DNA of 64,000 nucleotides, from contig JBGATK010000001.1 in assembly GCA_044229265.1 (NCBI GenBank), positions 35,776-99,775 of the forward strand. The letters run 5' to 3'. Below are positions 3,601 to 46,999 of this stretch, piece by piece. The stretch's first letter is position 1; each line of letters starts with the position of its first letter. The notes below the pieces were generated by a model. The model did no database searches and was not told the origin of the DNA. It saw nothing but the letters and a program-made list of their open reading frames with translations. The stretch is from Minisyncoccia bacterium (lineage in GTDB: Bacteria > Patescibacteriota > Minisyncoccia > Phycocordibacterales > UBA9973). A program made the position numbers and the translations under genes.

Positions 3601-4003
3601 TGTTACCAGTAATATTTACGGTACTATCCTTATCCTTAAACTGCATTACGCAAGTAGGCTTTGGATTAACTAAATTATTACAGCTGTTCCCAAGCTTGTC
3701 TTCAAGGAAACCTTCAGCACACAAACCATTGAATGGCAAGCCTCCTTGTAAATTCAGAGCCACACATGAAAGATTTTTAATCTCAACCATGTCTGTATCA
3801 ATCTCAGGGTAGGGTAAAGGACCCGGAAAAATCTGAAACATTTTTACTTCATCCTTGCAGGATAACGTAATTGCTGTGTCAGCATTTGGCGGACCTCCGG
3901 CCACCACGGCAGAAGCAGGCGGAGCTTCTGGCTTGTAGGTTAAGAAACAAGCACCCACGCCAAGGAGTGCCAAAAAGCCGTTTCGGAAATTTTTTAAATT
4001 CAT
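611..4003 (-). CDS. Giant cysteine-rich secreted lipoprotein with a dockerin-like segment and a T9SS (Por) C-terminal sorting domain
   Basis: 1130-aa ORF. N-terminus MNLKNFRNGFLALLGVGAC is a signal peptide with a lipobox-like GVGAC. Very many Cys residues. The segment DIVKIQRYVLG...ADVNHSGSVTASDISEIRKLILG resembles a dockerin repeat pair. The C-terminus VHPNPTGGVLFIDLP...KVSIISSEGIETRVL...YPSGVYIISVITDVKKYQAKVLKL matches the T9SS C-terminal-domain pattern (YPNP...I.LP...G.Y...K..K). Confidence 0.7.
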   Translation of the reverse strand: MNLKNFRNGFLALLGVGACFLTYKPEAPPASAVVAGGPPNADTAITLSCKDEVKMFQIFPGPLPYPEIDTDMVEIKNLSCVALNLQGGLPFNGLCAEGFLEDKLGNSCNNLVNPKPTCVMQFKDKDSTVNITGNTKHGTVVNRFWVNYVWVTKSMMARPDQNKPNAPKWLVAELYDANWNLKAIDSVNVDVKFTKDSSGLVEFVFNKYFDANKGFHILVYGTNPIHGWCNPFDQQCNPPIWEFYGFKIEFLCSALGNFCQWGPAKKVWEETNGCERIVYYEWNSSCGEKYVAKYIFTDFDAPLVANKPKDVTIYVNNTDCEAEYFVPAIQFDDCDKNASVFIHTDYGDIRGNGGYIAGIRVQIKKFEVIYTITDGCGNQTISSYWVNVKEDNSFNIVCEKAINTSLNSDSCSRVYAESFFIDMVSLCCGYTLTVKRLDTGKEGKYVELCCNDVGKTIQVCLQARSKCDTNQIAQCFSTITLQDKSIPRITCPRDITVACDTFDILNLSKYGKAVAYSSCGVSLKDTFINFLTMCNVGTVVRTFTATASNGNTAICSQTITIIDGRKFDESNIKWPRDTVFWDCHANYGPDRGLYPKFDHVGCSKQIAWSYIDEVFNFRKNGKCKGILRTWKVIDWCNFNPKTGPYWTHLQIIEVMDSTKPVITFCPKDTSIANYGACNDSVVVNLESVTAIDCGGILKISNDSKYSFVKGANASGKYPNGVHKVVFTVYDSCGTTSTCSMNITVSDKKAPSLILLDGLATDIQDCPPMGLGAKVILEKFIKSFSDNCCKNEDIKFSFFKDTIITEMLYPCDSLGWRNITVYAFDCYGNYTFVKTKIHIQDNFKRCPTAFKDTLMVAGVLQRPNGSIVEDVKMTLDSTSMICSGSYKFDSLAPKTHKVSPFKDDDPLFGVSTRDIVKIQRYVLGKDTLSPYQMIAADVNHSGSVTASDISEIRKLILGINPRFQNNNSWRFVPQSFVFPSGSMTWNFPEFLSITYGTPPGDVMNADFFGIKIGDVDGSANNSSGDDEKLSSRSSKEDVEIEYQRNQILIDAMKFEISVHPNPTGGVLFIDLPKGTQNAKVSIISSEGIETRVLPVQNGDKLEVSLEKYPSGVYIISVITDVKKYQAKVLKL

Positions 4004-11736: not shown

Positions 11737-13485
11737 TTATTCAGTTTCCTGCCAGCTCTCGACACTCCACCCACCCGAAGGCCCAGAAACGAAATTTGCA
11801 TTTATTAGACCCGAATCGAAAGTAATGACAGCATTATTATTTAAACTTATTTTATACCCATTTACCGATGTCGCTCCAGCATTATTGCTAACACTGACTG
11901 TACCATTCGCAGCATAAAGAACCACTGCTCCAGCATTATTACCAAGAGTTATTGCTGAAGTAGATGTAGATGTAGAAAGCGCCATTATATAACTACCTGC
12001 GGTGCCAGAGCCGTGAAAATCCGCATTATTGCCGACAGTTATAGTACCATCAGCTATAACTGCCCCTTCTCCTGATCCATAACCAGAAGATAGTCTTATA
12101 TCGACATTATTACTAAAAGAAATATTCCCTGTCACCCATAAAGTACCGGTAATAGTAAGGTCGCTATTGTTTTGAACAGTCAAATTCCCAACAATTTTTT
12201 TAGGTCCGAGTGAAGTAGTAGTGCTATCTATAGTCATATTACCTGTATATGTACCTCCGGCTAATGCTTCATCTTTCCAATCTAAAATATTTTGGTCAGA
12301 AATAGGCATCGCAATTGCTGCTGGATCAGCAAGTGATGTGTTGCACGATTTGTTATTTCCACTTCCCGTCTGGCAATAATTCGTGCCTGCGATAGTCGAA
12401 TTATTCACTGTATGAGCGTAAGCATTACCTACTCCACCAGAGCCGACAGTAATACCACTTATAAGCCCAGTGAGTCCTCCTAAATATAATTTGAAAAAGC
12501 CATCCAGCCCTCCCGGTGTAGTATTATTCCAAGTGCTACTATATTGACCTATTTTCCCAGTGCCACTACTATAACCATTTGCATTTGCACCTATATAATA
12601 ATATCTAGAAGAATTTGTTCCGCCATCAATAACTATCCAATACGTAGTACCAGCAGTAAGCTGTGGATTTGTGGACATTGGTACTGACACCCAGCCATAA
12701 GTTGTAGATATGAGCGATGCAGAAAGAGTACCAGAAGCCAGTGTAGTGGTGCTAGGTACGCCACTATTATCAGAAACAATTCGCACGGTTAGATTGCTAG
12801 GTGTGCTTACTTTTTTCAAATAAAGTTCAACCTTATTTACTACATCGGTAATGCTCGGCACAAAACTTTGCGCAAAATCTTGGGTACCATTTGCATTACC
12901 AAATTGCACATCATAAGCTGGTGTGCCGGAACCATTTGTCTGATCTGCGGTAAGAGCAGCAGAATTTGCAGATGTTGCAGATCCAGTAATACTACCAGAA
13001 CCTGTAATATTACCATTGGAATAAACACTACCTATAACACTAGAATTATTAGCCATAGTAAGACCGCCTTGACCCGACTGCACTCCATAATTAAAAGAAA
13101 TACCTGTACCTGCCTCTAAAATTATCTCATTTGCTCTATCTCTATTCCCGACATCACCAGCTGATGTAATTGTTTTTTGATTTCCCGCGTCGATAATATT
13201 TGTAGTAGCACTATAGCCATCTATATCTATAGTTTCTGTTGAGCCAATAGTTTTACCTGAATTAATTCTATAATATGCATCTTCGACGCCAGACTCTGAG
13301 AGATAGAACGATTTTTTAGCTTTTAATCCCGTATCAGCGAGCTTGTATTCAGAAACTGTTGGTGAAACCAAGCCCACAATCAAAGAAGCTGACAAAGCTG
13401 TAAAAAAAACTAGTGATACTATGAGAGCTTGACCCTTTTGATATTCATTATTATATTTATTTTTTGAAAAATTTTTTTTAAACAT
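11737..13485 (-). CDS. PilX-like minor or tip type IV pilus component (large G/S/T/N-rich secreted protein)
   Basis: 582 aa; N-terminus ...YQKGQALIVSLVFFTALSASLIVGLVS fits the PilX_N pattern (Q/R-G-x-ALIV...); last gene of the pilin block. Confidence 0.5.
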   Translation of the reverse strand: MFKKNFSKNKYNNEYQKGQALIVSLVFFTALSASLIVGLVSPTVSEYKLADTGLKAKKSFYLSESGVEDAYYRINSGKTIGSTETIDIDGYSATTNIIDAGNQKTITSAGDVGNRDRANEIILEAGTGISFNYGVQSGQGGLTMANNSSVIGSVYSNGNITGSGSITGSATSANSAALTADQTNGSGTPAYDVQFGNANGTQDFAQSFVPSITDVVNKVELYLKKVSTPSNLTVRIVSDNSGVPSTTTLASGTLSASLISTTYGWVSVPMSTNPQLTAGTTYWIVIDGGTNSSRYYYIGANANGYSSGTGKIGQYSSTWNNTTPGGLDGFFKLYLGGLTGLISGITVGSGGVGNAYAHTVNNSTIAGTNYCQTGSGNNKSCNTSLADPAAIAMPISDQNILDWKDEALAGGTYTGNMTIDSTTTSLGPKKIVGNLTVQNNSDLTITGTLWVTGNISFSNNVDIRLSSGYGSGEGAVIADGTITVGNNADFHGSGTAGSYIMALSTSTSTSAITLGNNAGAVVLYAANGTVSVSNNAGATSVNGYKISLNNNAVITFDSGLINANFVSGPSGGWSVESWQETE

Positions 13486-16189: not shown

Positions 16190-17941
16190 TTACTCAGAAA
16201 CCACTCTAAATACTTCTTCTACGCTAGTATTCCCTAGTGCTGCTTGAAAAATACCATCTTCTATCATGGTCATCATTCCTTCTTTTTTTGCTTGAGCTTC
16301 AATATCGTCTTGTGAAGCACCTTTTAAAACTAATTCCTTGATAGCACCTGAAACCTTTAATACTTCATGAATACCTACACGGCTTTTATAGCCATCTTCC
16401 GATTCAGCACTTTTTACTGGCCGATAAAATGCTACTTTATCCCAACTATCATCTTTGCCAATAATATTTTCAGCTTTTAAAAAACCTAACATTCTATCTA
16501 AATCTACAATTTTAGCTAAATTTGCTAATTCGTCTTTATTCATAAAATATTTTTCTTTTGATGAAGTTAAACGTCGTACAAGACGCTGAGCAATAATAGT
16601 TTTCACAGTAGAAATAATCAGAAATGGCAATGCGCCCATATCTATCATACGAGGAACAGCACCAGCAGCTGAATTAGTGTGAATTGTAGAAAGCACTAAG
16701 TGTCCAGTAAGTGAAGCATTAATAGCAAGAGATACAGTTTCCCCATCACGAATTTCCCCTACCATTACGATATCAGGGTCCTGACGAAGAAGTGCACGTA
16801 GTCCTTGTGCAAAAGTTAAACCTATTTCTGGTTTTACTTGTGTTTGATTTACTCTTGGCATTTGATATTCCACTGGGTCTTCTACCGTAGAAATATTTAC
16901 ATCTGGCTTATTTAACATATCGAGCATAGTGTAAAGCGTAGTAGTTTTACCCGAACCGGTAGGGCCAGTAGCTAGTATCATACCTGTTTTTTGTTTCATG
17001 GATTCATAAATTTTCTCTAATCCTTCACCATGAAAACCTAATCCTTCCAACGAGAAACCATGAGAATTTTCTTTTAAAAGACGAATCACAGTTTTTTCAC
17101 CGAAAAATGTAGGTAGTGTAGAAACACGAAAAGAAACTTTTTCACCATTTTGTTCTATTTTAAAACGACCATCTTGTGGGAGTCTTTTTTCATCAAGCTT
17201 TAAATTCGACAATACTTTTATGCGTGCAGTTATGCCTGGTGCTGCACTTTTATCGAGTGTCATGGCATCATGCAAAATACCATCAATACGGTAGCGCACT
17301 ACTAATTTTTCTTCACCTGGTTCTATGTGAATATCAGAAGCATTTTGCAAAATAGCATGAAAAACTAATGAATCCACGATCTTAACTACAGGCAAATCTT
17401 CAGCCATTTCTTTTAATTCTTGCGCTGATTTTTCTCCTCCACCCTCATCGTTCTTTAATTTTAAAGAATTTGATTCTTCTTGAATAATATTTGAAAATTC
17501 TGCTTGTAAACTTTTGCGATATTGCACAAGAGCACTTTTTATAGATGCACTATCTGTGAGGCGTGGTAAAATTTTGAGCCCGGAACGCTTTTTAATAAAA
17601 TCAATAACAGGCAAATCGTCCACGTCGAGCATAGCTACTTCTAATTCTTTTTCTGTTTTTTTATAACCAATAATATTATAATTTCGAGCAATTGGCTCTG
17701 GGATAAGTGAAAGTATAGCTATATCTATTTTTTCTTTTTCCAAAGAAACAAAAGGTATACCTAGAACATGGGCTTCTATTTTGCGAAGCTCTGTTTCTTT
17801 TAATTTATTTTGAATAAGAAGAGTATCAGAAAGGGTTTGCCCTTTTTCACTCGCAATTTTTGCCATATCATTTAAATCCGATTCTGAAATTAATTTACTA
17901 TCAAGTAAAAATTTCTTGAGTTGTTTTTCATCTATCTCCAT
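16190..17941 (-). CDS. pilB: Type IV pilus assembly ATPase PilB (GspE family)
   Basis: 583 aa; GspE_N-like N-terminus, Walker A GPTGSGKTTTLYTML, Asp and His boxes. Confidence 0.9.
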   Translation of the reverse strand: MEIDEKQLKKFLLDSKLISESDLNDMAKIASEKGQTLSDTLLIQNKLKETELRKIEAHVLGIPFVSLEKEKIDIAILSLIPEPIARNYNIIGYKKTEKELEVAMLDVDDLPVIDFIKKRSGLKILPRLTDSASIKSALVQYRKSLQAEFSNIIQEESNSLKLKNDEGGGEKSAQELKEMAEDLPVVKIVDSLVFHAILQNASDIHIEPGEEKLVVRYRIDGILHDAMTLDKSAAPGITARIKVLSNLKLDEKRLPQDGRFKIEQNGEKVSFRVSTLPTFFGEKTVIRLLKENSHGFSLEGLGFHGEGLEKIYESMKQKTGMILATGPTGSGKTTTLYTMLDMLNKPDVNISTVEDPVEYQMPRVNQTQVKPEIGLTFAQGLRALLRQDPDIVMVGEIRDGETVSLAINASLTGHLVLSTIHTNSAAGAVPRMIDMGALPFLIISTVKTIIAQRLVRRLTSSKEKYFMNKDELANLAKIVDLDRMLGFLKAENIIGKDDSWDKVAFYRPVKSAESEDGYKSRVGIHEVLKVSGAIKELVLKGASQDDIEAQAKKEGMMTMIEDGIFQAALGNTSVEEVFRVVSE

Positions 17942-18002: not shown

Positions 18003-20309
18003 TTAATATAAAGTTCGCCAAGCATATGTATTTGCAGCATCTTTGGCGCATACTTCTACATTATCTTTTACACCTGTAGCACCCTGTACCACAAAAAACA
18101 TACCCCGAACACTGGCTGTGCATGATGGTTTAGCAGAATTATTATTATTTACGATAACTCCTCCATTAAAAGTATTTTGTGTTATTGCTGTATTACCAAA
18201 AACCATAGAATTACTTGCACTGACTATAGCTCCATTACCAATTGCTGTAGCATTAGTTAAACCACCAGTAGAAACATCCGCACTATAACCAATAGCTGTA
18301 TTGTTTGTTCCAGTAGTATTTGTTAGTAAGGAAAAATAACCAAAAGCTGTGTTATTTGAACCTGTTGTTGCATTTAAAGAACCATTACCAAATGCAGAAT
18401 TATTATTACCAGCAGTATTTAATTGCAAAGCACCTTTTCCAAAAGCACTATTTCTATCGCCATCTAAATTATTTAAAAGAGCTTGATATCCAAAAGCGGA
18501 ATTTTCGAAACCACCTGTATTTACAGCAAGAGCAGTAGAACCCACAGCTGTATTTCTATACCCTACAGTATTGTCTCTAAGAGCCCATTGTCCAAAACCA
18601 GAGTTAGCATCACCTGTAGTATTTGATTGTAAAACTTGATATCCAACAGCAGTATTATTTGCCAATCCAGAATTATTTCCACCGAGAGCATTAATACCTA
18701 CAGCCAAATTTGTTCCTAATTGGTTAGTGCCTTTACCTACAATTACACTACTGATAGATATATTACCCGAAGTATCTACTCTCATTCTCTCAACCCCACT
18801 CGTAGTTATTGCAAAAATATCAGCTCCTGGAGAAAATGTTCCCGTATTTGTATCACCTAAAAATGTCCGAGTTGGAGCACTTGCTGTGCCTAGTGTGGTA
18901 GCTACTGCTCCAGCCACTTCAAACTTTGAAACAAAAGTAGTTCCTACAGGTTGCCCCACACCAACACTTCCATTAACTGGATTTATTACGACATCTCCTT
19001 TCAAAGAACCATTGCTTGTAGAATCTAAAATTAAATCTCCATTTGCAGTAGAATTTCCATTTATTGTAAAACCAGCCATTTGCAATGCTTGTGTAGCTGT
19101 ATGATTTCCTAAATTATCAGCACCGCCACATGTTTGCCATTCAAAAGTTGCACCTGTAGTTTCGTAAGTTAAACAAAATTCATCAGTAGCAGTACCAGAA
19201 ATACTAACCTTTGATACAGTAACAGCGCCATTTAATATTTTTGTATTTGAAACAGCATTAACTGCTATTTTGGGATCATCTACAGCAAGAGCTGCTATTT
19301 TTCCATTGGTTATAGACAAAGCATCGACAGTCCAAACTGTGCCAGTACCAGAAACAGTAATGTCTCCTTTATCACCATCTGTAATACCACCATTAGCTGT
19401 AAAAGTAATATTACTATTATTTACATCATGAGTAATGGTAATTCCTGAACCGGCTATCAAACCTTTATATTCCAAACTAAGACCAGTATCATCTAAACCT
19501 AGAACCTTATTAGCACCTCCAAAAACTGCAGCTATATCAGTTTTAGATACACCATCAACAGCTATTTTGTCGCTAGTTATAGAATCTGCAGCTAATTCTG
19601 TATTACCAACCACTCCTGCATCTATATTCCAAACACTACCACTAGAGGAAACAGTGATGTCGCCTTTGTCGCCATCTGTTAGAGAATTTAACACTTGCCA
19701 AGATCCGTCGCCTCGCAAATAATTTGTAACGCCAGGAGTGCCTGTAATAGCAGATGAAAATAATGGTATTCTATTTGTATTAATTTCTTGCACAGGACCA
19801 GCTGAATTACCTAAATTCGCTAAAAATCTATTAGCTCCAACATTTTGAATTTTTGAATAGGTAACAGCCAAAGGATCTATAGTCCAAGTAGCTCCACTAC
19901 CAGAAACAGTAATGTCGCCTTTATCACCATCGGAAACACCTCCGGAACTAACATCCCAAGTTAAATTACCTGCACCATCAGTTTTTAAATATCCATTTGC
20001 AGTTTGGTTTGCAGGAAAAGTATATGTTTCTGTATTTAGAGTAAGTGTTTTGCCTGGAAAGATAGTTACATTACCTTTTAAATCTGAAGTTCCGTCTACT
20101 ACTAATACTGTACCAGAGCGTAGTCCACTCCATGCTACTATTCCTCCGTCTTTTGCTTGAGTAGTGGAGCTTGTGTTTATTGGGGGTTCGGTGTTGCCAA
20201 GAGGTGGAATACCGGACGGTGGAACCCAAGTAGCAAAAGCTTGTAAGCTTATACTAAAAAGTGATATCGCTAAAAATGATTTAAGAAAAATTTTCTTTTT
20301 TAAAGACAT
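18003..20309 (-). CDS. Large secreted surface protein with internal repeats (DGDKGDITVSGSG..WTID three times); paralogue of the next gene
   Basis: 768 aa; signal peptide ...SLQAFA|TWVPP; the N-terminal ~130 aa are near-identical to the 20348-22021 product; G/N/T/S-rich beta-solenoid-like composition. Confidence 0.7.
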   Translation of the reverse strand: MSLKKKIFLKSFLAISLFSISLQAFATWVPPSGIPPLGNTEPPINTSSTTQAKDGGIVAWSGLRSGTVLVVDGTSDLKGNVTIFPGKTLTLNTETYTFPANQTANGYLKTDGAGNLTWDVSSGGVSDGDKGDITVSGSGATWTIDPLAVTYSKIQNVGANRFLANLGNSAGPVQEINTNRIPLFSSAITGTPGVTNYLRGDGSWQVLNSLTDGDKGDITVSSSGSVWNIDAGVVGNTELAADSITSDKIAVDGVSKTDIAAVFGGANKVLGLDDTGLSLEYKGLIAGSGITITHDVNNSNITFTANGGITDGDKGDITVSGTGTVWTVDALSITNGKIAALAVDDPKIAVNAVSNTKILNGAVTVSKVSISGTATDEFCLTYETTGATFEWQTCGGADNLGNHTATQALQMAGFTINGNSTANGDLILDSTSNGSLKGDVVINPVNGSVGVGQPVGTTFVSKFEVAGAVATTLGTASAPTRTFLGDTNTGTFSPGADIFAITTSGVERMRVDTSGNISISSVIVGKGTNQLGTNLAVGINALGGNNSGLANNTAVGYQVLQSNTTGDANSGFGQWALRDNTVGYRNTAVGSTALAVNTGGFENSAFGYQALLNNLDGDRNSAFGKGALQLNTAGNNNSAFGNGSLNATTGSNNTAFGYFSLLTNTTGTNNTAIGYSADVSTGGLTNATAIGNGAIVSASNSMVFGNTAITQNTFNGGVIVNNNNSAKPSCTASVRGMFFVVQGATGVKDNVEVCAKDAANTYAWRTLY
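19874..20198. repeat. ~325-bp near-identical tract, copy 1 (within the 5' part of the 768-aa gene)
   Basis: Matches 21583-21907 with about 4 mismatches when read directly. The ORF track shows identical 82-aa shadow ORFs in both places. Confidence 0.85.
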
Positions 20310-20347: not shown

Positions 20348-22021
20348 TTATTTTATCTTTGCTTCGAGGATTTCTAAACGCCTACGCAAATCTTCATTTT
20401 CTTTTTTTAGTTCATTAATTTGAGCTTCATGTTTTTGAGTTTCTTTAAGTAGCAATACTGACAACATTGGATATTTAACAGAATCTGGGATTAGTAAATC
20501 TCTTGTGCTACCGGCAATTACATTCTTCTCTGGAATATAGTCCACCAAAGCAGGCACAACTTTATCTACATCTTCGGCTATAAGACCAAAATACCTAAGT
20601 CCATCACTTTTTGAAGTATAAGAAACTGGTTTCAAATCATAAATTTTTGAAGTATCTATTTCTAAATCCGCGACATCTTTTTTATATCTTATAGAAGAAG
20701 TTGAGCGAAGTAATTTACTAGTACCTGTATCATAATACGCATTTGCAGCATTTGCTGTCGTTCCAATACTTCCAAATGAAGGATTGGTTAGTGTTTTCCC
20801 CGATAGAGTTTGAGTGCCTGTTGTATCTACTGGGGTAAAAGTAGTCCACCCTGTACCTGAATTAACTCTACGTAAAGCATCATTATTACCAGGGCATTTC
20901 TCTACAAGAATACCTGTAGTTTCGGCAGCCAACATACAACCTCCGGTGACGCTTGATACTCCAGTACCTCCTTTACCTACAGGTAAAATACCCGCAACCT
21001 CAGTCGTAGCTAGGTCAACTTGAGCTGTAGTTCCACCACCAGTAGCAAATATGTAATTATTAGCAGTTATAACACCAGCACCAGTTGGACCCAACGTACC
21101 TGAGGTCAGTAGTGCTACTGTATTTGTACCTGTTGTAACACTCGCAAATGATACTGACCCTCCACCTCCAGATGTTCCACAAGAAAAAGTATTTGTAGCA
21201 ATAACATAATTTAAATGATTTCCTCCAGAATCAGGACAATTTAAAAGTGCTTTTGCTTCCCAAGCAGAACCATTTGAAACAAGTAGGGTATCGTCAACAG
21301 CACTTGAAAGGCCTGTGCCACCTTTGGCAAAAGGCACGACATTGTTATAAGTAGTAGAGAGTCCGGTAGAAGTAACGTCCCCAGTTAAGTTTCCCATAGT
21401 AGGTGTTCCCCAAGTATTATCGCCTCGCAAAAAAGTAGTAGAATCTTTTGTGCCAGTAGCTGAGAGCTTTGTAGTCGCTACTATAGTAGCATCAGTAATT
21501 TTTATATTAGTTATTGCATTGTCTGCAATTTTTGAATTTCCTACTGCATTGTCTACAATCTTTCCTGTTGTAATAGTAAGTGGGTCTATAGTCCAAGTAG
21601 CTCCACTGCCAGTAACAGTAATGTCGCCTTTATCACCATCAGAAACACCTCCGGAACTAACATCCCAAGTTAAATTTCCTGCACCATCAGTTTTTAAATA
21701 TCCATTTGCAGTTTGGTTTGCAGGAAAAGTATATGTTTCTGTATTTAGAGTAAGTGTTTTGCCTGGAAAGATAGTTACATTACCTTTTAAATCTGAAGTT
21801 CCGTCTACTACTAATACTGTACCAGAGCGTAGTCCACTCCATGCTACTATTCCTCCGTCTTTTGCTTGAGTAGTGGAGCTTGTGTTTATTGGGGGTTCGG
21901 TGTTGCCTCCTGTTGGAGGAGTGCCTATTGGAGGCACCCACACTGCAAATGCTTGCAAAGCTATTGCAAAGGCTGTGAGGACGAAAACAGATTGAAGAAA
22001 AATTTTTGTTTTATAAGTCAT
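20348..22021 (-). CDS. Tail-fibre-like surface protein with a C-terminal intramolecular chaperone auto-processing (peptidase S74-like) domain
   Basis: 557 aa; signal peptide ...LQAFA|VWVPP; C-terminus RSTSSIRYKKDVADLEIDTSKIYDLKPVSYTSKSDGLRYFGLIAEDVDKVVPALV...YPMLSVLLLKETQKHEAQINELKKENEDLRRRLEILE matches the endosialidase/tail-fibre chaperone domain pattern. Confidence 0.7.
   Translation of the reverse strand: MTYKTKIFLQSVFVLTAFAIALQAFAVWVPPIGTPPTGGNTEPPINTSSTTQAKDGGIVAWSGLRSGTVLVVDGTSDLKGNVTIFPGKTLTLNTETYTFPANQTANGYLKTDGAGNLTWDVSSGGVSDGDKGDITVTGSGATWTIDPLTITTGKIVDNAVGNSKIADNAITNIKITDATIVATTKLSATGTKDSTTFLRGDNTWGTPTMGNLTGDVTSTGLSTTYNNVVPFAKGGTGLSSAVDDTLLVSNGSAWEAKALLNCPDSGGNHLNYVIATNTFSCGTSGGGGSVSFASVTTGTNTVALLTSGTLGPTGAGVITANNYIFATGGGTTAQVDLATTEVAGILPVGKGGTGVSSVTGGCMLAAETTGILVEKCPGNNDALRRVNSGTGWTTFTPVDTTGTQTLSGKTLTNPSFGSIGTTANAANAYYDTGTSKLLRSTSSIRYKKDVADLEIDTSKIYDLKPVSYTSKSDGLRYFGLIAEDVDKVVPALVDYIPEKNVIAGSTRDLLIPDSVKYPMLSVLLLKETQKHEAQINELKKENEDLRRRLEILEAKIK
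21583..21907. repeat. ~325-bp near-identical tract, copy 2 (within the 5' part of the 557-aa gene)
   Basis: See copy 1. Confidence 0.85.
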
Positions 22022-22044: not shown

Positions 22045-23604
22045 TTAATTTTCTTTGTATTTTCTAGTTTGTTTACCAGAACTAGGATTAATATCTAAGG
22101 TTGTGGAATAAATTTGGTTTGAATTACCTGTGCAAGTAATAGTAAATTTATTATTACCTGCTGGAACATCGATATTAACCTCTTCGTGTGAACCATCAGA
22201 ACTGTCTTTAGGATTTGGTGTTTGCCACGAAGGATTGTTTGGCGCGGAAGTAGGGACACAAGAATTTGCCTGCATTCCAAGCACTGTCCATTTGAGCGTG
22301 GTTTTATTTCCCACAACTTTTGTATTAGAAAATGTAAGTTGCTCATTGAAACCCTTATTCACAAAAACAGGCTGGGCATTCACTGGCACTCCCCCATCAA
22401 AACATTGCAAATCAAAACGAACTGGGGCACTGATGTTTGCAATAGAATAATCGTATTTTGTTTGAGTAGTTGTATTTGAAGTAAAAGGACTTACCTTCCA
22501 ATCTGCCTGTGAATTTCCGAAAGAATCAGTAGTGTGTGCTATACAGCCTGTAAGCGGAGCATCAGAATACCAAGTAAGGTCAACATCAAAAGGTGAATAT
22601 GATACAAAGCTATCTGGAGCAAGGAATAATCGTATACCTACGTGAACTACTACACGTTCTACTACAGACCAAATAGTGCCAGTAGTGTCTAGACATTTTA
22701 TTTCATATATATAATCTCCTTTAGTATTCAAAATACCTGTATTAAAAGTGCCACTTGGTGAATTTTTTTCTGGCACTGGATTTATCCATGCTCCTGTATC
22801 CTGTGAACCTGCACCTTGGCTAGCCAAACATCCAGTAGGACTATTTATTAAATTAAGACCATCCCAAAATATTGTAGTTTGACCACCTTGAGGGATATAA
22901 ATATCTTGCGCTGAAATTGTAACCATGGGTTCATTGATAGGATCATAAAAAACATTTGAAAAATCTAACCAACCTACGACTTGTTCATCGTGAATACCTG
23001 AGCCATCATTTCCACCAAAGGCATAACCACCAAAAGTTTTTAAATTAGCATCATAACTGACACCATAGCCAGTGCCACGAAGAGAAAGCCATCCATCCCA
23101 ACCCCCATTTGAAGCATTTTTACCAGCATTGCCAGTACAAAGAGAAGGGACAGCTGAAGGCGAACAAAAACGAGCCCAGCCTCGAACTTCATTTCCGACT
23201 ACTTGGGCATTTTGAGTATAAGTTCCAAAACCAGTAGGCATTTCACTAGTATTTAATCCTCCGAATTTTACCCAACCATAGTGAGCTGAATAAGCATAAC
23301 CTTCTAAATAACCAGTATTTGGATCGAAATTTACACCATAATTTGAATCACTACATCCATTATGAGAGACACAATTAAAAGAAAGCCATTCTGTTCCACC
23401 TCTGACTAAACCATAGCCAAAATCACCTTCATCCATACCCCAAGCTGCACCCTGCAAACTATCTAGAGTGCTACCTTTGACTAAATTATTTGAAAAAGAG
23501 AATAAAAATCCAAAAACAACTACAATTACTAAAAACTTGATTGCTTTTACATGATCAAATTTAATCAAACTAACTTTTTTAAATATTTTTTTAAAAATTT
23601 GCAT
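22045..23604 (-). CDS. Secreted hypothetical protein (N-terminal anchor, Gly/Trp/Cys-rich)
   Basis: 519 aa ORF with an N-terminal hydrophobic segment; no recognisable family. Confidence 0.5.
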   Translation of the reverse strand: MQIFKKIFKKVSLIKFDHVKAIKFLVIVVVFGFLFSFSNNLVKGSTLDSLQGAAWGMDEGDFGYGLVRGGTEWLSFNCVSHNGCSDSNYGVNFDPNTGYLEGYAYSAHYGWVKFGGLNTSEMPTGFGTYTQNAQVVGNEVRGWARFCSPSAVPSLCTGNAGKNASNGGWDGWLSLRGTGYGVSYDANLKTFGGYAFGGNDGSGIHDEQVVGWLDFSNVFYDPINEPMVTISAQDIYIPQGGQTTIFWDGLNLINSPTGCLASQGAGSQDTGAWINPVPEKNSPSGTFNTGILNTKGDYIYEIKCLDTTGTIWSVVERVVVHVGIRLFLAPDSFVSYSPFDVDLTWYSDAPLTGCIAHTTDSFGNSQADWKVSPFTSNTTTQTKYDYSIANISAPVRFDLQCFDGGVPVNAQPVFVNKGFNEQLTFSNTKVVGNKTTLKWTVLGMQANSCVPTSAPNNPSWQTPNPKDSSDGSHEEVNIDVPAGNNKFTITCTGNSNQIYSTTLDINPSSGKQTRKYKEN

Positions 23605-43234: not shown

Positions 43235-44020
43235 ATGAAAATCATCAGCTGGAACACAAATGGCCTACGCGCTACTATAAAGCAAGGACACTTTGAACCC
43301 TTATTCAAAAAATACAAACCAGACATAGTGTGTTTCCAAGAAACTAAATCTGAAGAAATTCAAATTCCTGAAAAATACAGAAATTTTCTAGGTTATCATT
43401 CTTATTTCTCACATTCCAAAGAAAGAAAGGGCTACAGCGGCACCGCTATTTATTCTAAAGAAAAACCAATAGAAGTTTTTGAAGGCATGGAGAAAATTCT
43501 CGGAAAAAGTGCAAAAATTTTCGATACCGAAGGGCGTCTCCTGACTGCTCGCTATAAAGATTTTACTCTTATCACTGGATACTATCCAAATGGGGGCCAA
43601 GGTCCACACCGCCTCGAATACAAATTAAAATTTTATGATATGTTTTTGAAATTTATTTTAAAACTCCGCGCTGCTGGCGAAAATGTTATTTTCTGCGGAG
43701 ATGTAAACACTGCGCACGAAGCCATCGACCTCGCCCGCCCAAAAGCCAACGAAGAAAATACTGGCTTCCTCCCCATCGAGCGCGCATGGATTACAAAAGT
43801 CATCAAAAATAATTTCCTCGATGTCTGGCGAGAAATGAACCCAAATAAAAAAGATGTCTATACATACTGGGATCAAAAGACTGCTTCGAGGGAACGCAAT
43901 GTCGGCTGGCGTATAGATTACTTTTTTGCAGACAAGCCCCTGATGAAAAAAATAAAATCTGCTGGAATGCTTAGCGACTACATGGGCTCAGACCACTGCC
44001 CTATCTTGCTTGAACTATAA
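43235..44020 (+). CDS. xth: Exodeoxyribonuclease III / AP endonuclease
   Basis: 261 aa; MKIISWNTNGLRA...DIVCFQETK...SDHCPI are ExoIII/EEP motifs. Confidence 0.9.
   Translation: MKIISWNTNGLRATIKQGHFEPLFKKYKPDIVCFQETKSEEIQIPEKYRNFLGYHSYFSHSKERKGYSGTAIYSKEKPIEVFEGMEKILGKSAKIFDTEGRLLTARYKDFTLITGYYPNGGQGPHRLEYKLKFYDMFLKFILKLRAAGENVIFCGDVNTAHEAIDLARPKANEENTGFLPIERAWITKVIKNNFLDVWREMNPNKKDVYTYWDQKTASRERNVGWRIDYFFADKPLMKKIKSAGMLSDYMGSDHCPILLEL
43940..44004. repeat. xth 3' end segment that is duplicated at 45337-45401
   Basis: 65-bp identical match read directly. Confidence 0.8.
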
Positions 44021-44040
44021 AAATAGCTATACTAAAGAAT

Positions 44041-44931
44041 ATGTACAATAACATAGAGAATCCAAATTCCAACAAACAAGTAAGTAGCCAAGTAATGGAA
44101 TCGACAGAAATAGATTTAGATGAAATAAAAATATCTAAATTAAAATCACAAAAGGAAGACATTTTAAATTCAAATAATTTTTCATCTAAGAAAGAAATCT
44201 TGGGTGGCAATATTGGTGACGCAACTTTTGTATCCATAGAAGGTGACGGTAATGGAGTATTTAAACCACACACTAAATATAATTATGACCCAGAAAGAAA
44301 AATGAATTTTATCAATAGCGAGCGAGCAGCATATTTATTTAGTCAGTTTTTAGGTTTTGACATTGTTCCACTCACAATAGTAAAAAATGTAGAATATCGA
44401 AATACTGAGGATAATGATAATGATGTCATCACCCAAATAGGAAGCTTGCAAGAATTTATAGAAAATGCCGAGGAAGGTCGTGAATGCAACATAGCCGAAA
44501 TTCCTAAATTAGAAATTTTAAAACTTCATATTTTTGATATTATTATTGCCAACGACGATAGGCATGGAGCAAATTTTTTAATTAAAAACAATAAAATTTA
44601 TGCTATTGATAACGGATTAGCCCTAAAAAAAACAGACCTTCTTGATATAAATATTGAAAGTAATAGACCGTTAGTAAATAATGACTACTTAATAAAAATT
44701 TCACAAAATGATGAATTACCTGCTGAAATTACTAATAAAATAAAAGAATTACTAAAATGGGAAAATGGTGTAAAAATTTTAAAGCAACAAATAGAAGAGT
44801 TATTAGGGAAAGAAGTAGCAGAAATATCTATAGAAAGATTAAAAATCTTATCAGATTGCATCAATGAAGAAAATAAATTTGACATAAATAATTTTAAACA
44901 ATCAATTCGTGAATTAAAAAGGAAGTCTTAA
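44041..44931 (+). CDS. PI3/PI4-kinase-like atypical kinase domain protein
   Basis: 296 aa; IFDIIIANDDRHGANFLIKNNKIYAIDNGLAL reproduces the catalytic-loop DRHxxN and the activation-loop IDNG(L) spacing typical of type II PI4-kinase-like catalytic domains. Confidence 0.5.
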   Translation: MYNNIENPNSNKQVSSQVMESTEIDLDEIKISKLKSQKEDILNSNNFSSKKEILGGNIGDATFVSIEGDGNGVFKPHTKYNYDPERKMNFINSERAAYLFSQFLGFDIVPLTIVKNVEYRNTEDNDNDVITQIGSLQEFIENAEEGRECNIAEIPKLEILKLHIFDIIIANDDRHGANFLIKNNKIYAIDNGLALKKTDLLDINIESNRPLVNNDYLIKISQNDELPAEITNKIKELLKWENGVKILKQQIEELLGKEVAEISIERLKILSDCINEENKFDINNFKQSIRELKRKS

Positions 44932-44956
44932 ATAGACACACTAACTAATAAAAAAT

Positions 44957-45217
44957 ATGAAATACGTAGAAATATATAAATTGCAAAATAATGGGGATCA
45001 AAAGGTAGTGTTAAAATGCTTTTTACGTGGAGAAAATGTAGAGTTTGAAGGTGAAGGAGAACAATTAGCAAAAAACTTAATCACTGATGGAATCAAGAAC
45101 TATCTTGAAGAATCCATTGAAGCCTTGTATCCCAAAGATGGCTTAAAATTTCTACAAAACATGATGTATAATTTCACTTCTGGATATTTAAATGCATCTG
45201 ATGTGCTAGAACAATAG
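44957..45217 (+). CDS. Small hypothetical protein
   Basis: 86 aa ORF; no family recognised. Confidence 0.35.
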   Translation: MKYVEIYKLQNNGDQKVVLKCFLRGENVEFEGEGEQLAKNLITDGIKNYLEESIEALYPKDGLKFLQNMMYNFTSGYLNASDVLEQ

Positions 45218-45233
45218 AAACCCAGAAACTCAA

Positions 45234-45326
45234 ATCCTAGCGACAAAAAATAAACTTTTGCTATAATATAAATATGCTTAAATCAACAAGGCTCGATGAA
45301 CTCGCCGACGGTATCTTTGCTATTTT
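45234..45326. repeat. Duplicate of the MscS-3'/DUF1211-5' junction (copy of 46332-46424)
   Basis: 93 bp with one mismatch; includes the TATAAT and ATG of the DUF1211 gene. Confidence 0.8.
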
Positions 45327-45420
45327 AATGACAACTCTGATGAAAAAAATAAAATCTGCTGGAATGCTTAGCGACTACATGGGCTCAGACCACTGCCCTA
45401 TAAGTCTTGAATTAAAATAA
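45274..45420 (+). pseudogene. Chimeric remnant ORF: the first ~22 codons of the DUF1211 gene fused to the last ~26 codons of xth
   Basis: Own translation MLKSTRLDELADGIFAILMTTLMKKIKSAGMLSDYMGSDHCPISLELK; the junction lies in a shared ctgatgaaaaaaataaaatc microhomology. Confidence 0.55.
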
Positions 45421-45429
45421 AATTTAACA

Positions 45430-45478
45430 TTTAGAATTTTTGTGTTATACCCGTACACTTAAATTTGTAAAAAATTAA
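45430..45478 (+). promoter_or_regulatory. Imperfect 17-bp inverted repeat with a 12-nt spacer upstream of the MscS-like gene (candidate operator)
   Basis: tatacccgtacacttaa - atttgtaaaaaa - ttaagtgttggggtata. Confidence 0.25.
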
Positions 45479-45491
45479 GTGTTGGGGTATA

Positions 45492-46352
45492 TTGAAAAAT
45501 ATGGATATTTTTGAATTTTTTGGACAATTTAATACCCACCAAACTACAATACTTTGGGTTTTGTTTGGACTTCTTATCATAGAAGTTTATTTACGCATAG
45601 CCAAAAAGAAACTCAAAGTAAAATATAAATACAATAAAGATAAAGTCGAAGATTTTGAAGACATGGAAAAGATCTGGATTGAGTATTACAAAAAGAATCA
45701 AAATTTATTCGTCATTCGTGTTATCAGTATTTTTATCGCCATAGCGGTAATATTGGTGAGTTTTGATGTAAATGCTTTTAATTTGCTCGCAGTAGTAGCC
45801 GGTGCGACGATAATTATTTTCCGTGATTATATATTTTCTTTTATTACATTTTTCTATATAATTTCTATCTATAAAATCGGTGATGACGTAAAAACAGATA
45901 CAATCTTAGGAGAAATACTACGCATCAATCCCCTGTATGTAGCCATAGCCGGTAAAGATGAAGATGGTGAATACAATGGCAAATTACATCGTGTTCCAAA
46001 TAGTATTTTCATTACTCAAAAAATAGAAGCCCAAGAACTAAAAGCAGATGATTATCGTAGAGTAATGATAACTGCAGTATTTTCAACTGAAAAATTCATG
46101 GATGGTTTTAGTATATGGTTAGACAAAGTAAGAAATTTCTTAGAAGAAACATTGCCAGCTCGCACACTAGAACGTGTAGGACATTTTAAAGGATATCTAG
46201 GTGTAAAATATAAAATTAATTTTGATTATAATGATAAAGGTGATACAGTGGTGCGCATTTCATTCATTGCTCGCCCACCAAAAAATATAGAACTAAAAGA
46301 AAAAATCATAGAATATATTGAAACTCTACGTAATCCTAGCGACAAAAAATAA
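45492..46352 (+). CDS. Mechanosensitive ion channel, MscS family
   Basis: 286 aa; transmembrane helices, then IYKIGDDVKTDTILGEILRINPLYVAIAGKDEDGEYNGKLHRVPNSIF matches the MscS beta-domain pattern (V.IG...G.V..I.LR.T..R..DG....IPNS). Confidence 0.7.
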   Translation: MKNMDIFEFFGQFNTHQTTILWVLFGLLIIEVYLRIAKKKLKVKYKYNKDKVEDFEDMEKIWIEYYKKNQNLFVIRVISIFIAIAVILVSFDVNAFNLLAVVAGATIIIFRDYIFSFITFFYIISIYKIGDDVKTDTILGEILRINPLYVAIAGKDEDGEYNGKLHRVPNSIFITQKIEAQELKADDYRRVMITAVFSTEKFMDGFSIWLDKVRNFLEETLPARTLERVGHFKGYLGVKYKINFDYNDKGDTVVRISFIARPPKNIELKEKIIEYIETLRNPSDKK

Positions 46353-46424
46353 ACTTTTGCTATAATATAAATATGCTCAAATCAACAAGGCTCGATGAAC
46401 TCGCCGACGGTATCTTTGCTATTG
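46332..46424. repeat. Original MscS-3'/DUF1211-5' junction (duplicated at 45234-45326)
   Basis: See 45234-45326. Confidence 0.8.
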
Positions 46425-46999
46425 TGATGACGATACTGGTTTTTGAAATAAAAATTCCAGATGCTCTCGGAGAAATTTCAAATTTTGAACTTTGGAAACA
46501 CTTGGTAAACCTTATTCCTTCTATGCTTTCTTATATACTTTCTTTTGCTTTACTATTTACTTACTGGCGAGCACACCACTTCTTTATATCTGTATATGCA
46601 AAAAATATCGACACTGCCCTTATGAATATAAATGGTTTCTTTTTCATGATCATTGCTCTCATCCCCTTTTCAGCCAGCGTTCTTGGTCAGCACAGTAATA
46701 ATGAACTTTCTATAATTCTTTTTGGTAGCAATATCGTAATCATTGGTCTTACTCTTTATTTTATGCGTAGATATGTACTATACTCACCTCATATTAAAAA
46801 TCCTGAAATAACTCATCGTGAACTTTTTGGATCCACTGTTCGAACCATGGTGCCAGTGATATTCGCGCTCATAGCTATATCACTTTCTTTTTGGAATACG
46901 ACTTTATCACTCGCTCTTTTTACACTAGCGGTAATATTTAATTTACTACCACAAAGCACAACACTAGCCGAAAAATTCTTCCATCATGAAGAAGAATAA
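46373..46999 (+). CDS. DUF1211/TMEM175-like potassium channel family membrane protein
   Basis: 208 aa; RLDELADGIFAIVMTILVFEI is the DUF1211 signature (RxxxFSDGVFAIAxTLLVLE); 6 predicted transmembrane segments; TATAAT sits 8 nt before the ATG. Confidence 0.75.
   Translation: MLKSTRLDELADGIFAIVMTILVFEIKIPDALGEISNFELWKHLVNLIPSMLSYILSFALLFTYWRAHHFFISVYAKNIDTALMNINGFFFMIIALIPFSASVLGQHSNNELSIILFGSNIVIIGLTLYFMRRYVLYSPHIKNPEITHRELFGSTVRTMVPVIFALIAISLSFWNTTLSLALFTLAVIFNLLPQSTTLAEKFFHHEEE

What the first reader, a model, noticed from the sequence alone, without database searches (positions are those of the whole stretch)
44041..44931. Bacterial protein with a PI3/PI4-kinase-like catalytic core
IFDIIIANDDRHGANFLIKNNKIYAIDNGLAL matches the catalytic-loop DRHxxN and the IDNG(L)A activation-loop start, spaced as in type II PI4-kinase-like domains. 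The gene sits inside the rearranged cargo interval. Such domains are uncommon in bacteria and are typical of host-interaction proteins. The assignment rests on short motifs only.
Basis: partly seen in the sequence, partly recalled or inferred. Interest (0 to 1): 0.55.

Follow-up and report, generated by a model that had tools for sequence, protein, structure and literature searches.

The report
Minimal PI4K-like kinase with small partner
The gene does encode a compact bacterial kinase built like the human type II phosphatidylinositol 4-kinases, but it belongs to an uncharacterised family of ultra-small (Patescibacteria) bacteria that almost always travels with a strongly conserved 86-residue partner protein, and nothing points to a host-directed lipid kinase.

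Summary
ORF 44041-44931 (+, 296 aa) carries the quoted motifs. It passes Pfam PF00454 (31 bits against a cut-off of 27.1). Its family profile hits PI4KII-beta and PI4KII-alpha sequences in the PDB (E 1.5e-15 and 2.7e-14). Its AlphaFold model (pLDDT 87) has human PI4KII-alpha as best Foldseek match (E 6.6e-9). The Gly-rich loop, Lys75, Glu94, the D173-R-H-x-x-N178 loop and the I-D190-N-G motif are invariant or nearly so across 82 relatives, so it is probably an active kinase.

The next gene (44957-45217, 86 aa) sits directly downstream of the kinase in 14 of 16 informative kinase-side loci, and the kinase sits directly upstream in 3 of 3 informative partner-side loci. This partner has no Pfam family and no significant PDB fold match. 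It is more conserved than the kinase and ends in an invariant SGYLNAS motif.

The sister subfamily (SCO1664/TIGR03843; Actinomycetota and Chloroflexota) instead pairs with DUF3090 and a histidine phosphatase.

The protein is soluble, has no signal peptide, and lies among housekeeping genes, although a local duplication scar flanks it. My best reading is a cytoplasmic two-protein kinase module, with the partner as regulator or substrate. Substrate and function remain untested.

The parts
44041..44931 (+). Kinase gene, 296 aa: a minimal type II PI4K-like (PF00454) kinase of the Patescibacteria subfamily
   Evidence: ORF; Pfam PF00454 31 bits against cut-off 27.1; family profile against PDB hits PI4KII-beta at 1.5e-15; model pLDDT 87.4; Foldseek top hit 4hnd PI4KII-alpha E 6.6e-9
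44203..44223 (+). Gly-rich (nucleotide-binding) loop G55-G-N-I-G-D-A61
   Evidence: Aligned with GSSGSYFV of PI4KII-beta in the profile alignment; conserved with the 41%-identical homologue; consensus GGxNxxxFV
44263..44265 (+). Codon of Lys75 (FKP motif), the predicted ATP-binding lysine
   Evidence: Invariant in 82 sequences; aligned with GVFKPK of PI4KII-beta
44557..44574 (+). Catalytic loop D173-R-H-G-A-N178
   Evidence: D173, R174 and N178 conserved in at least 90% of 82 sequences; aligned with DRGNDN of PI4KII-beta
44605..44616 (+). I189-D190-N-G192, the metal-binding 'DFG-equivalent' motif
   Evidence: I189 invariant; D190 and G192 conserved in at least 90%; aligned with AIDNGLAF of PI4KII-beta
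44957..45217 (+). Partner gene, 86 aa: conserved small alpha/beta protein always found directly downstream of kinases of this subfamily
45179..45199 (+). C-terminal motif S75-G-Y-L-N-A-S81 of the partner
   Evidence: S75, G76, Y77, A80 and S81 invariant in 70 sequences. In divergent copies position 81 is T, E or G, while S75, Y77, L78 and A80 persist
43942..44003 (+). Repeat D2a: 3' end of the exonuclease III gene, repeated at 45337-45398
   Evidence: the repeat finder family D2; a run of about 65 nt is identical in the alignment
45237..45343 (+). Repeat D1a: copy of the TMEM175 promoter region plus its first ~22 codons (original at 46336-46442), joined at 45336/45337 to repeat D2b
   Evidence: the repeat finder family D1; about 97% identity in the alignment; sequence read
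45337..45398 (+). Repeat D2b: fragment of the exonuclease III 3' end. Together with D1a it forms an in-frame chimeric 48-aa ORF (45275-45421)

Best explanation
The gene encodes a soluble, catalytically competent phosphotransferase with the type II PI4-kinase fold, stripped of the eukaryotic membrane-anchoring insertions. It belongs to a Patescibacteria-wide subfamily that is sister to the actinobacterial SCO1664 family. It works as a two-gene module with the 86-residue protein encoded directly downstream. I infer that the two proteins are made together, bind each other, and that the partner is either the kinase's regulator or its phospho-acceptor, through its invariant C-terminal S-G-Y-L-N-A-S segment. 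That would make it a cytoplasmic protein phospho-switch rather than a phosphoinositide kinase.

Shown: fold, family, conservation of the catalytic residues, gene linkage, and the partner's conservation.

Inferred: kinase activity, physical interaction, and a protein (not lipid) substrate.
For: Fold and family:
- PF00454 is above its threshold.
- The family profile hits PI4KII-beta and PI4KII-alpha at 1.5e-15 and 2.7e-14, with all motifs aligned.
- Foldseek's top twelve hits are PI4KII-alpha and PI4KII-beta, from a model with pLDDT 87.4.

Active site: K75, E94, D166 and I189 are invariant. D173, R174, N178, D190 and G192 are conserved in at least 90% of 82 relatives that share only 26-43% identity with the query.

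Linkage:
- The partner lies directly downstream on the same strand in 4 of 4 looked-up contigs.
- It is present in 14 of 16 informative distinct loci.
- From the partner side, a PF00454 gene lies directly upstream in 3 of 3 informative contigs.
- The surrounding genes differ in every locus.

Partner conservation: mean column identity is 47% and identity to the window copy 42-60%, against 25% mean column identity for the kinase. There are many invariant polar residues.

Subfamily logic: clustering of 87 loci gives a Patescibacteria group (21 loci, 18 with the partner, 0 with DUF3090) and an Actinomycetota/Chloroflexota group (62 loci, 0 with the partner, 60 with DUF3090, plus a His_Phos_1 phosphatase in the loci inspected). 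Each kinase subfamily therefore has its own dedicated adjacent protein.

Position 81 of the partner is S in nearly all copies, T in one locus and E in two. That pattern is compatible with a phospho-site.

Localisation: both proteins are soluble and acidic, with no signal peptide or membrane segment.
Against: - No activity, complex or phospho-site has been observed. No complex prediction could be run.
- The closest characterised relatives are lipid kinases, so a lipid or inositol-like substrate cannot be excluded.
- Two loci of the subfamily (L015, L018) lack the partner, so it is not strictly obligatory.
- Kinases whose partner has Glu at position 81 keep intact catalytic motifs. Ser81 therefore cannot be the only target.
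- No phosphatase is consistently linked in Patescibacteria loci.
Confidence: 0.45

Rival explanations
1. It is a small-molecule kinase acting on an inositol-, sugar- or other metabolite-like substrate, and the 86-aa protein is an accessory or substrate-presenting subunit.
For: The nearest characterised enzymes phosphorylate an inositol hydroxyl. The sister SCO1664 family is reported as invariably linked to mycothiol (inositol-containing thiol) biosynthesis genes (PMC4255298). It also sits next to a histidine phosphatase, which could mean a metabolite phosphorylation/dephosphorylation pair.
Against: No metabolic genes are conserved around the Patescibacteria cassette. The only conserved neighbour is a small, very conserved protein with no ligand-binding family match.
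Confidence: 0.2
2. It is a HipT/HipS-like toxin-antitoxin pair. The kinase arrests growth by phosphorylating an essential protein, and the small partner neutralises it by binding the active site.
Confidence: 0.12
3. It is a true phosphoinositide 4-kinase used on host or own membranes.
For: The best sequence and structure matches are PI4KII-alpha and PI4KII-beta. Patescibacteria are generally thought to live attached to other cells (general knowledge).
Against: There is no signal peptide or membrane segment. The protein has only two isolated cysteines, so there is no CCPCC-type palmitoylation motif. The long C-lobe segment of PI4KII after IDNGLAF is not matched, and the corresponding loop is short, variable and low-confidence. 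The conserved cytoplasmic partner and the housekeeping context argue against it. The nearest relatives by score are the bacterial SCO1664 family, not the eukaryotic enzymes.
Confidence: 0.1
4. It is a catalytically dead pseudokinase that acts only as a scaffold for the partner.
For: Pseudokinases occur in the related Fam20 family; Fam20A is among the matches.
Against: All residues expected for catalysis are present in the window protein and conserved across the family.
Confidence: 0.03

Closest known systems
Eukaryotic type II phosphatidylinositol 4-kinases (human PI4KII-alpha and PI4KII-beta; PDB 4hnd, 4hne, 4wtv)
   Same: The bilobal fold is the same and these are the best structural matches (Foldseek E 6.6e-9, 21-26% identity). 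The motif set and order are the same: Gly-rich loop, FKP lysine, E-x-x-AYLVD helix, GSxQxF hinge, DYIIxNxDRxxxN catalytic loop and AIDNGL.
   Different: The window protein is 296 aa; the crystallised PI4KII constructs are longer, at 337-353 residues for 4hnd. It lacks a cysteine-rich palmitoylation motif and the long segment after IDNGLAF. It is soluble, bacterial and paired with a small partner. Lipid kinase activity is untested.
SCO1664 family (NCBIfam TIGR03843) of Actinomycetota and Chloroflexota
   Same: This is the closest bacterial family by sequence. TIGR03843 gives E 5e-12, and the Patescibacteria profile scores 90-143 bits on these genes. It is of similar size and is also uncharacterised. 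It is also linked to a dedicated adjacent protein.
   Different: The window protein scores 45.6 bits against a family cut-off of 172.4. The partner there is DUF3090, located upstream, plus a His_Phos_1 phosphatase, not the downstream 86-aa protein. The two partners show no detectable homology (hhalign probability 0.1%).
HipBST toxin-antitoxin system (HipT kinase with HipS, ~100 aa)
   Different: The gene order is reversed and there is no HipB. There is no sequence similarity and no Foldseek support. The kinase is closer to PI4KII than to HipA. The conservation pattern is unlike that of an antitoxin.
Fam20C/Fam20A secretory-pathway kinases
   Same: This is the second-best structural and profile match (Foldseek E 2.4e-5; profile E 5.5e-11). 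Fam20C works with a partner protein, the pseudokinase Fam20A, as seen in the complex structures among the hits.
   Different: The Fam20 proteins are secreted eukaryotic enzymes. The window protein has no signal peptide, and its partner is not a kinase paralogue.

Membership tests
Pfam PF00454 PI3_PI4_kinase superfamily | Score above the curated gathering threshold of the family HMM | tested here: met
   31.0 bits against a cut-off of 27.1, E 3.2e-7, residues 94-204. Most relatives carry the same precomputed annotation.
Type II PI4-kinase family | Kinase fold closest to PI4KII-alpha/beta | tested here: met
   Foldseek ranks 1-12 are all PI4KII-alpha or PI4KII-beta, E 6.6e-9 to 1.5e-6, probability 1.00, using a model with pLDDT 87.4.
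Type II PI4-kinase family | Catalytic motif set: Gly-rich loop, FKP lysine, DRxxxN catalytic loop, IDNG metal-binding motif | tested here: met
   GGNIGD at 55, FKP at 74, DRHGAN at 173, IDNG at 189. All align to the PI4KII-beta motifs and are conserved in the family.
Type II PI4-kinase family | Membrane anchoring through a palmitoylated cysteine-rich (CCPCC) insertion (from established knowledge of PI4KII-alpha) | tested here: not met
   The only cysteines are the isolated C149 and C273. There is no hydrophobic segment; the maximum 19-residue hydropathy is 1.53.
Type II PI4-kinase family | Phosphorylation of phosphatidylinositol at the 4-position | not testable with these tools
   This needs an enzyme assay.
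SCO1664 family (TIGR03843) | Score above the NCBIfam cut-off | tested here: not met
   45.6 bits against a cut-off of 172.4.
SCO1664 family (TIGR03843) | Adjacent DUF3090 gene, with a histidine phosphatase also present in the loci inspected | tested here: not met
   DUF3090 is present in 60 of 62 loci of that cluster and in 0 of 21 loci of the window's cluster. The window has exonuclease III upstream.
HipA/HipT kinases with HipS-type partner | HipA_C / HipA_2 domain above threshold | tested here: not met
   HipA_2 E 0.008, 15.9 bits against a cut-off of 27.
HipA/HipT kinases with HipS-type partner | Small partner with the HipS (HipA N-subdomain, Couple_hipA) fold | tested here: inconclusive
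Known anti-phage defence systems (PADLOC) | Significant match of either protein to a defence-system model | tested here: not met
   The best E-values are 0.0012 (kinase) and 0.0024 (partner), at 15-16 bits.

The most novel reading that the evidence does not exclude
The kinase and the 86-residue protein form a previously undescribed two-protein phospho-switch that is widespread in Patescibacteria. It is built on a minimal type II PI4K fold and a partner of a new fold. Together with the SCO1664-DUF3090 pair, it would represent a prokaryotic 'kinase plus dedicated small protein' lineage related to the ancestor of the eukaryotic type II PI4-kinases.
Probability: 0.3. Interest if true: 0.7.

Novelty: new variant of a known kind. 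Interest (0 to 1): 0.5.

Why it matters
Type II PI4-kinases are usually treated as eukaryotic membrane-trafficking enzymes. This work shows a stripped-down bacterial version with all catalytic residues. It sits in organisms with tiny genomes, where conserved genes are likely to matter, and it is locked to a small protein that no database describes.

If the pair is a phospho-switch, it would add a signalling module to the very sparse known regulatory repertoire of Patescibacteria. It would also give a tractable minimal model for the PI4KII fold. The parallel with SCO1664-DUF3090, which is conserved in mycobacteria and streptomycetes, means that solving one pair would probably explain the other. 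If it turns out to be an ordinary metabolite kinase, the interest is modest.

Tried and rejected
- Single-sequence search of the PDB with the kinase found only chance hits to DNA ligase at E 0.7. A family profile was needed.
- I tested the idea that the 86-aa partner is a shortened DUF3090. hhalign gives probability 0.1%, so I rejected it.
- Fusion proteins joining kinase and partner, which would have shown a functional link: none among 341 retrieved proteins.
- Defence-system models (PADLOC): nothing significant.
- The Foldseek search against afdb50 could not be run because the library was unavailable.
- Literature searches for SCO1664, DUF3090, Rv2133c, PF00454 in the candidate phyla radiation, and PI4KII bacterial homologues found no functional study. 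The only relevant statement was a gene-linkage remark on SCO1664 and mshC.
- Naming the organism failed. The genome-contig scan used a peptide pattern that the window's own protein does not match, and the cluster look-up returned no accession or name. Assignment to Patescibacteria rests on the labels of homologues and on gene content.
- Promoter and terminator scans around the cassette were at background level.

Full report
**Observation**

A Gly-rich loop GGNIGD starts at residue 55. An FKP motif at residue 74 gives Lys75. ERAAY is at 94, QEF at 137, DRHGAN at 173 and IDNG at 189.

**Is it a PI3/PI4-kinase-like protein?**

Yes, and specifically of the type II PI4K kind.
- Pfam PF00454 scores 31.0 bits against a curated cut-off of 27.1 (E 3.2e-7). 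HipA_2 and Fam20C are only sub-threshold echoes.
- A single-sequence search of PDB sequences found nothing.
- A profile of 82 family members hit PI4KII-beta (E 1.5e-15) and PI4KII-alpha (2.7e-14). Fam20A/C followed at about 1e-10 and Vps34 at 4e-3.
- The printed alignment puts GxxGxxFV...GVFKP, ExxAYLVD, GSxQxF, DYIIxNxDRxxxN and AIDNGL in register.
- An AlphaFold2 model built on that alignment is confident (pLDDT 87.4, pTM 0.85).
- Its twelve best Foldseek matches in the PDB are all human PI4KII-alpha or PI4KII-beta (E 6.6e-9 to 1.5e-6, 21-26% identity). Fam20C/Fam20A come next, and ordinary protein kinases, Rio2 and COQ8A come far behind.

**Is it likely active?**

In the 82-sequence alignment, whose members share only 26-43% identity with the query, K75, E94, Y98, P110, T112, Q137, D166 and I189 are invariant. 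D173, R174, N178, D190 and G192 are conserved in at least 90% of sequences. These correspond to the ATP-binding lysine, its helix-C glutamate, the catalytic loop and the metal-binding aspartate. This mapping comes from established knowledge of PI4KII-alpha and of kinases in general. Activity itself is inferred, not shown.

**What family is it?**

The word-indexed protein search found only the identical protein and one homologue at 41% identity. Searching again with the pair as a profile gave 443 proteins. They are mostly 250-290 aa, mostly pre-annotated PF00454 and all unnamed. Where a label exists it is Patescibacteria, Minisyncoccia, Harrisonbacteria or Staskawiczbacteria. A full HMMER scan of 1.84 billion cluster representatives gave 795 hits at E<=1e-3 and 220 at E<=1e-10. 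So the domain is not rare in bacteria.

NCBIfam's nearest model is TIGR03843, the SCO1664 family (E 5e-12). The score of 45.6 bits is far below its 172.4-bit cut-off. A scan of species-representative genomes recovered both Patescibacteria loci and many Actinomycetota and Chloroflexota loci.

**The main new finding: a conserved partner**

In all four homologue contigs I looked up, the kinase is followed directly by an 85-88 aa gene with no Pfam hit, while every other neighbour differs. The window has the same gene at 44957-45217, 25 nt after the kinase stop.

These small proteins are homologous and strikingly conserved, at 47-59% identity to the window copy. An HMM of them finds a hit directly downstream of the kinase, on the same strand, in the window and in 13 further distinct loci. 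It is absent in two (L015, L018), and one contig (L002) ends too early to tell.

Starting instead from the partner, a PF00454 gene lies directly upstream in three of three informative contigs. In the fourth, the partner sits at the contig start.

The partner family has 350 members at E<=0.1. The 120 listed are 83-114 aa, none has a Pfam domain, and every name a source gives is 'hypothetical protein'. Across 70 of them, Y7, Q15, C21, G32, G45, G62, F65, L66, S75, G76, Y77, A80 and S81 are invariant. Mean column identity is 47%, against 25% for the kinase.

**The sister family behaves analogously but with a different partner**

In Chloroflexota and Actinomycetota loci, the kinase is preceded by a DUF3090 protein and a His_Phos_1 phosphatase. 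Clustering the kinases of 87 loci separates two main groups:
- A Patescibacteria group: 21 loci, 18 with the 86-aa partner and none with DUF3090.
- An Actinomycetota/Chloroflexota group: 62 loci, none with the partner and 60 with DUF3090.

The two partner types are not detectably homologous (hhalign probability 0.1%). Each kinase subfamily thus has its own dedicated adjacent protein. I take this as the strongest available hint that these kinases act on or with a protein.

Nothing functional is published on either family in the searchable literature. The only relevant statement is that SCO1664 is always linked to mshC (PMC4255298; other searches).

**Context in the window**

The neighbourhood is ordinary Patescibacteria chromosome:
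- Upstream of the cassette: RNase Y, an S24 peptidase, ComM, PNPase, a NYN protein, ribosomal protein S15, a XerC/D-type recombinase and exonuclease III.
- Downstream of it: a weak MscS-like ORF, a TMEM175-type channel, CCA-adding enzyme and four tRNAs, followed by UvrD and KsgA.
- Elsewhere in the window: MurB, Nramp, a PilB-type ATPase, NusA and trigger factor.

Both cassette proteins are acidic and soluble, with no signal peptide and no membrane segment. PADLOC gives nothing significant. The idea of a host-directed effector therefore has no support.

The last ~62 nt of the exonuclease III gene (43942-44003) recur at 45337-45398, with a run of about 65 nt identical. The TMEM175 promoter region plus its first ~22 codons (46336-46442) recur at 45237-45343 at about 97% identity. 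The two fragments are joined at 45336/45337 and form an in-frame 48-aa chimeric ORF.

The stretch 45337-46999 (xth 3' end, MscS-like ORF, TMEM175) looks like an uninterrupted older arrangement. The kinase-partner cassette lies in the other copy of the duplicated frame.

GC content is 27.5% for the kinase, 31% for the partner and 30% for the MscS-like ORF. It is 40% for xth, 35% for TMEM175 and 34.6% for the whole window.

The pattern fits two models: a microhomology-mediated tandem duplication followed by loss, or Campbell-type integration of a circularised alternative allele. I could not decide between them. An independent short-read contig (L001) is identical to window 43975-45262 and ends inside both repeats. 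That is what repeats do to assemblies, but it does not confirm the junction.

**Mechanism**

My best reading (confidence 0.45) is a cytoplasmic two-protein module. An active minimal PI4KII-fold kinase binds the co-expressed 86-aa protein, which is its regulator or its phospho-acceptor.

One small pointer concerns position 81 of the partner. It is Ser in nearly all copies, Thr in L014 and Glu in L019 and L044. S75, Y77, L78 and A80 never change.

Rivals:
- A metabolite (inositol- or sugar-type) kinase with an accessory subunit (0.2).
- A true phosphoinositide kinase (0.1). The missing membrane-anchoring features and the cytoplasmic context argue against it.
- A pseudokinase (0.03).

**Verdict**

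The kinase itself is a new member of a known superfamily and is already caught by automatic Pfam annotation. The conserved kinase-partner cassette, and a partner with no family and no recognisable fold, are to my knowledge undescribed. I rate it a new variant of a known kind, of moderate interest (0.5). Function remains to be tested experimentally.

Noticed in passing
window 43942-44003 / 45337-45398 and 45237-45343 / 46336-46442: There are two pairs of direct repeats. The 3' end of the exonuclease III gene and the promoter plus first ~22 codons of the TMEM175 gene are each duplicated and joined head-to-tail at 45336/45337, bracketing the kinase-partner cassette and the MscS-like ORF. This looks like a tandem-duplication or Campbell-integration scar. 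The three enclosed genes have 27-31% GC against 35-40% for the flanks.
   Followed up: partly
window 45275-45421 (+): An in-frame chimeric 48-aa ORF (MLKSTRLDELADGIFAILMTTLMKKIKSAGMLSDYMGSDHCPISLELK) is formed by the TMEM175 5' fragment fused to the exonuclease III 3' fragment. It lies behind a copy of the TMEM175 promoter-like sequence.
   Followed up: no
proteins P0123 (3184 aa) and P0162 (1553 aa): These are giant relatives with three or four tandem PI4KII-like kinase domains in one polypeptide. One also carries DUF4347 and the other HipA_C-like signals. Their origin and context are unknown.
   Followed up: partly
window 45044-45046 (partner residue 30): The window's partner protein has Phe where at least 90% of 70 homologues have Cys (C30). 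The invariant C21 is kept. If the two cysteines form a pair, this copy lacks it.
   Followed up: no
L044:4632-6045: A contig labelled as a Thermoplasmatales archaeon MAG carries a divergent kinase (138 bits) followed by a weak partner homologue (E 5e-7) ending in FKSPYLRAE. The cassette may extend beyond Patescibacteria, or the bin label may be wrong.
   Followed up: no
window 611-4003, 11737-13485, 18003-20309, 22045-23604 (all - strand): Several large ORFs (519-1130 aa) have no Pfam match. They cluster around a PilB-type T2SSE ATPase (16190-17941) and an ORF with a Peptidase_S74 chaperone domain (20348-22021). This is possibly a pilus or surface-protein region typical of Patescibacteria.
   Followed up: no
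window 45492-46352 (+): A 286-aa ORF with hydrophobic stretches has only a sub-threshold match to the MscS beta-domain (E 0.008). It starts with TTG in the ORF list, but an ATG lies 9 nt downstream.
   Followed up: no
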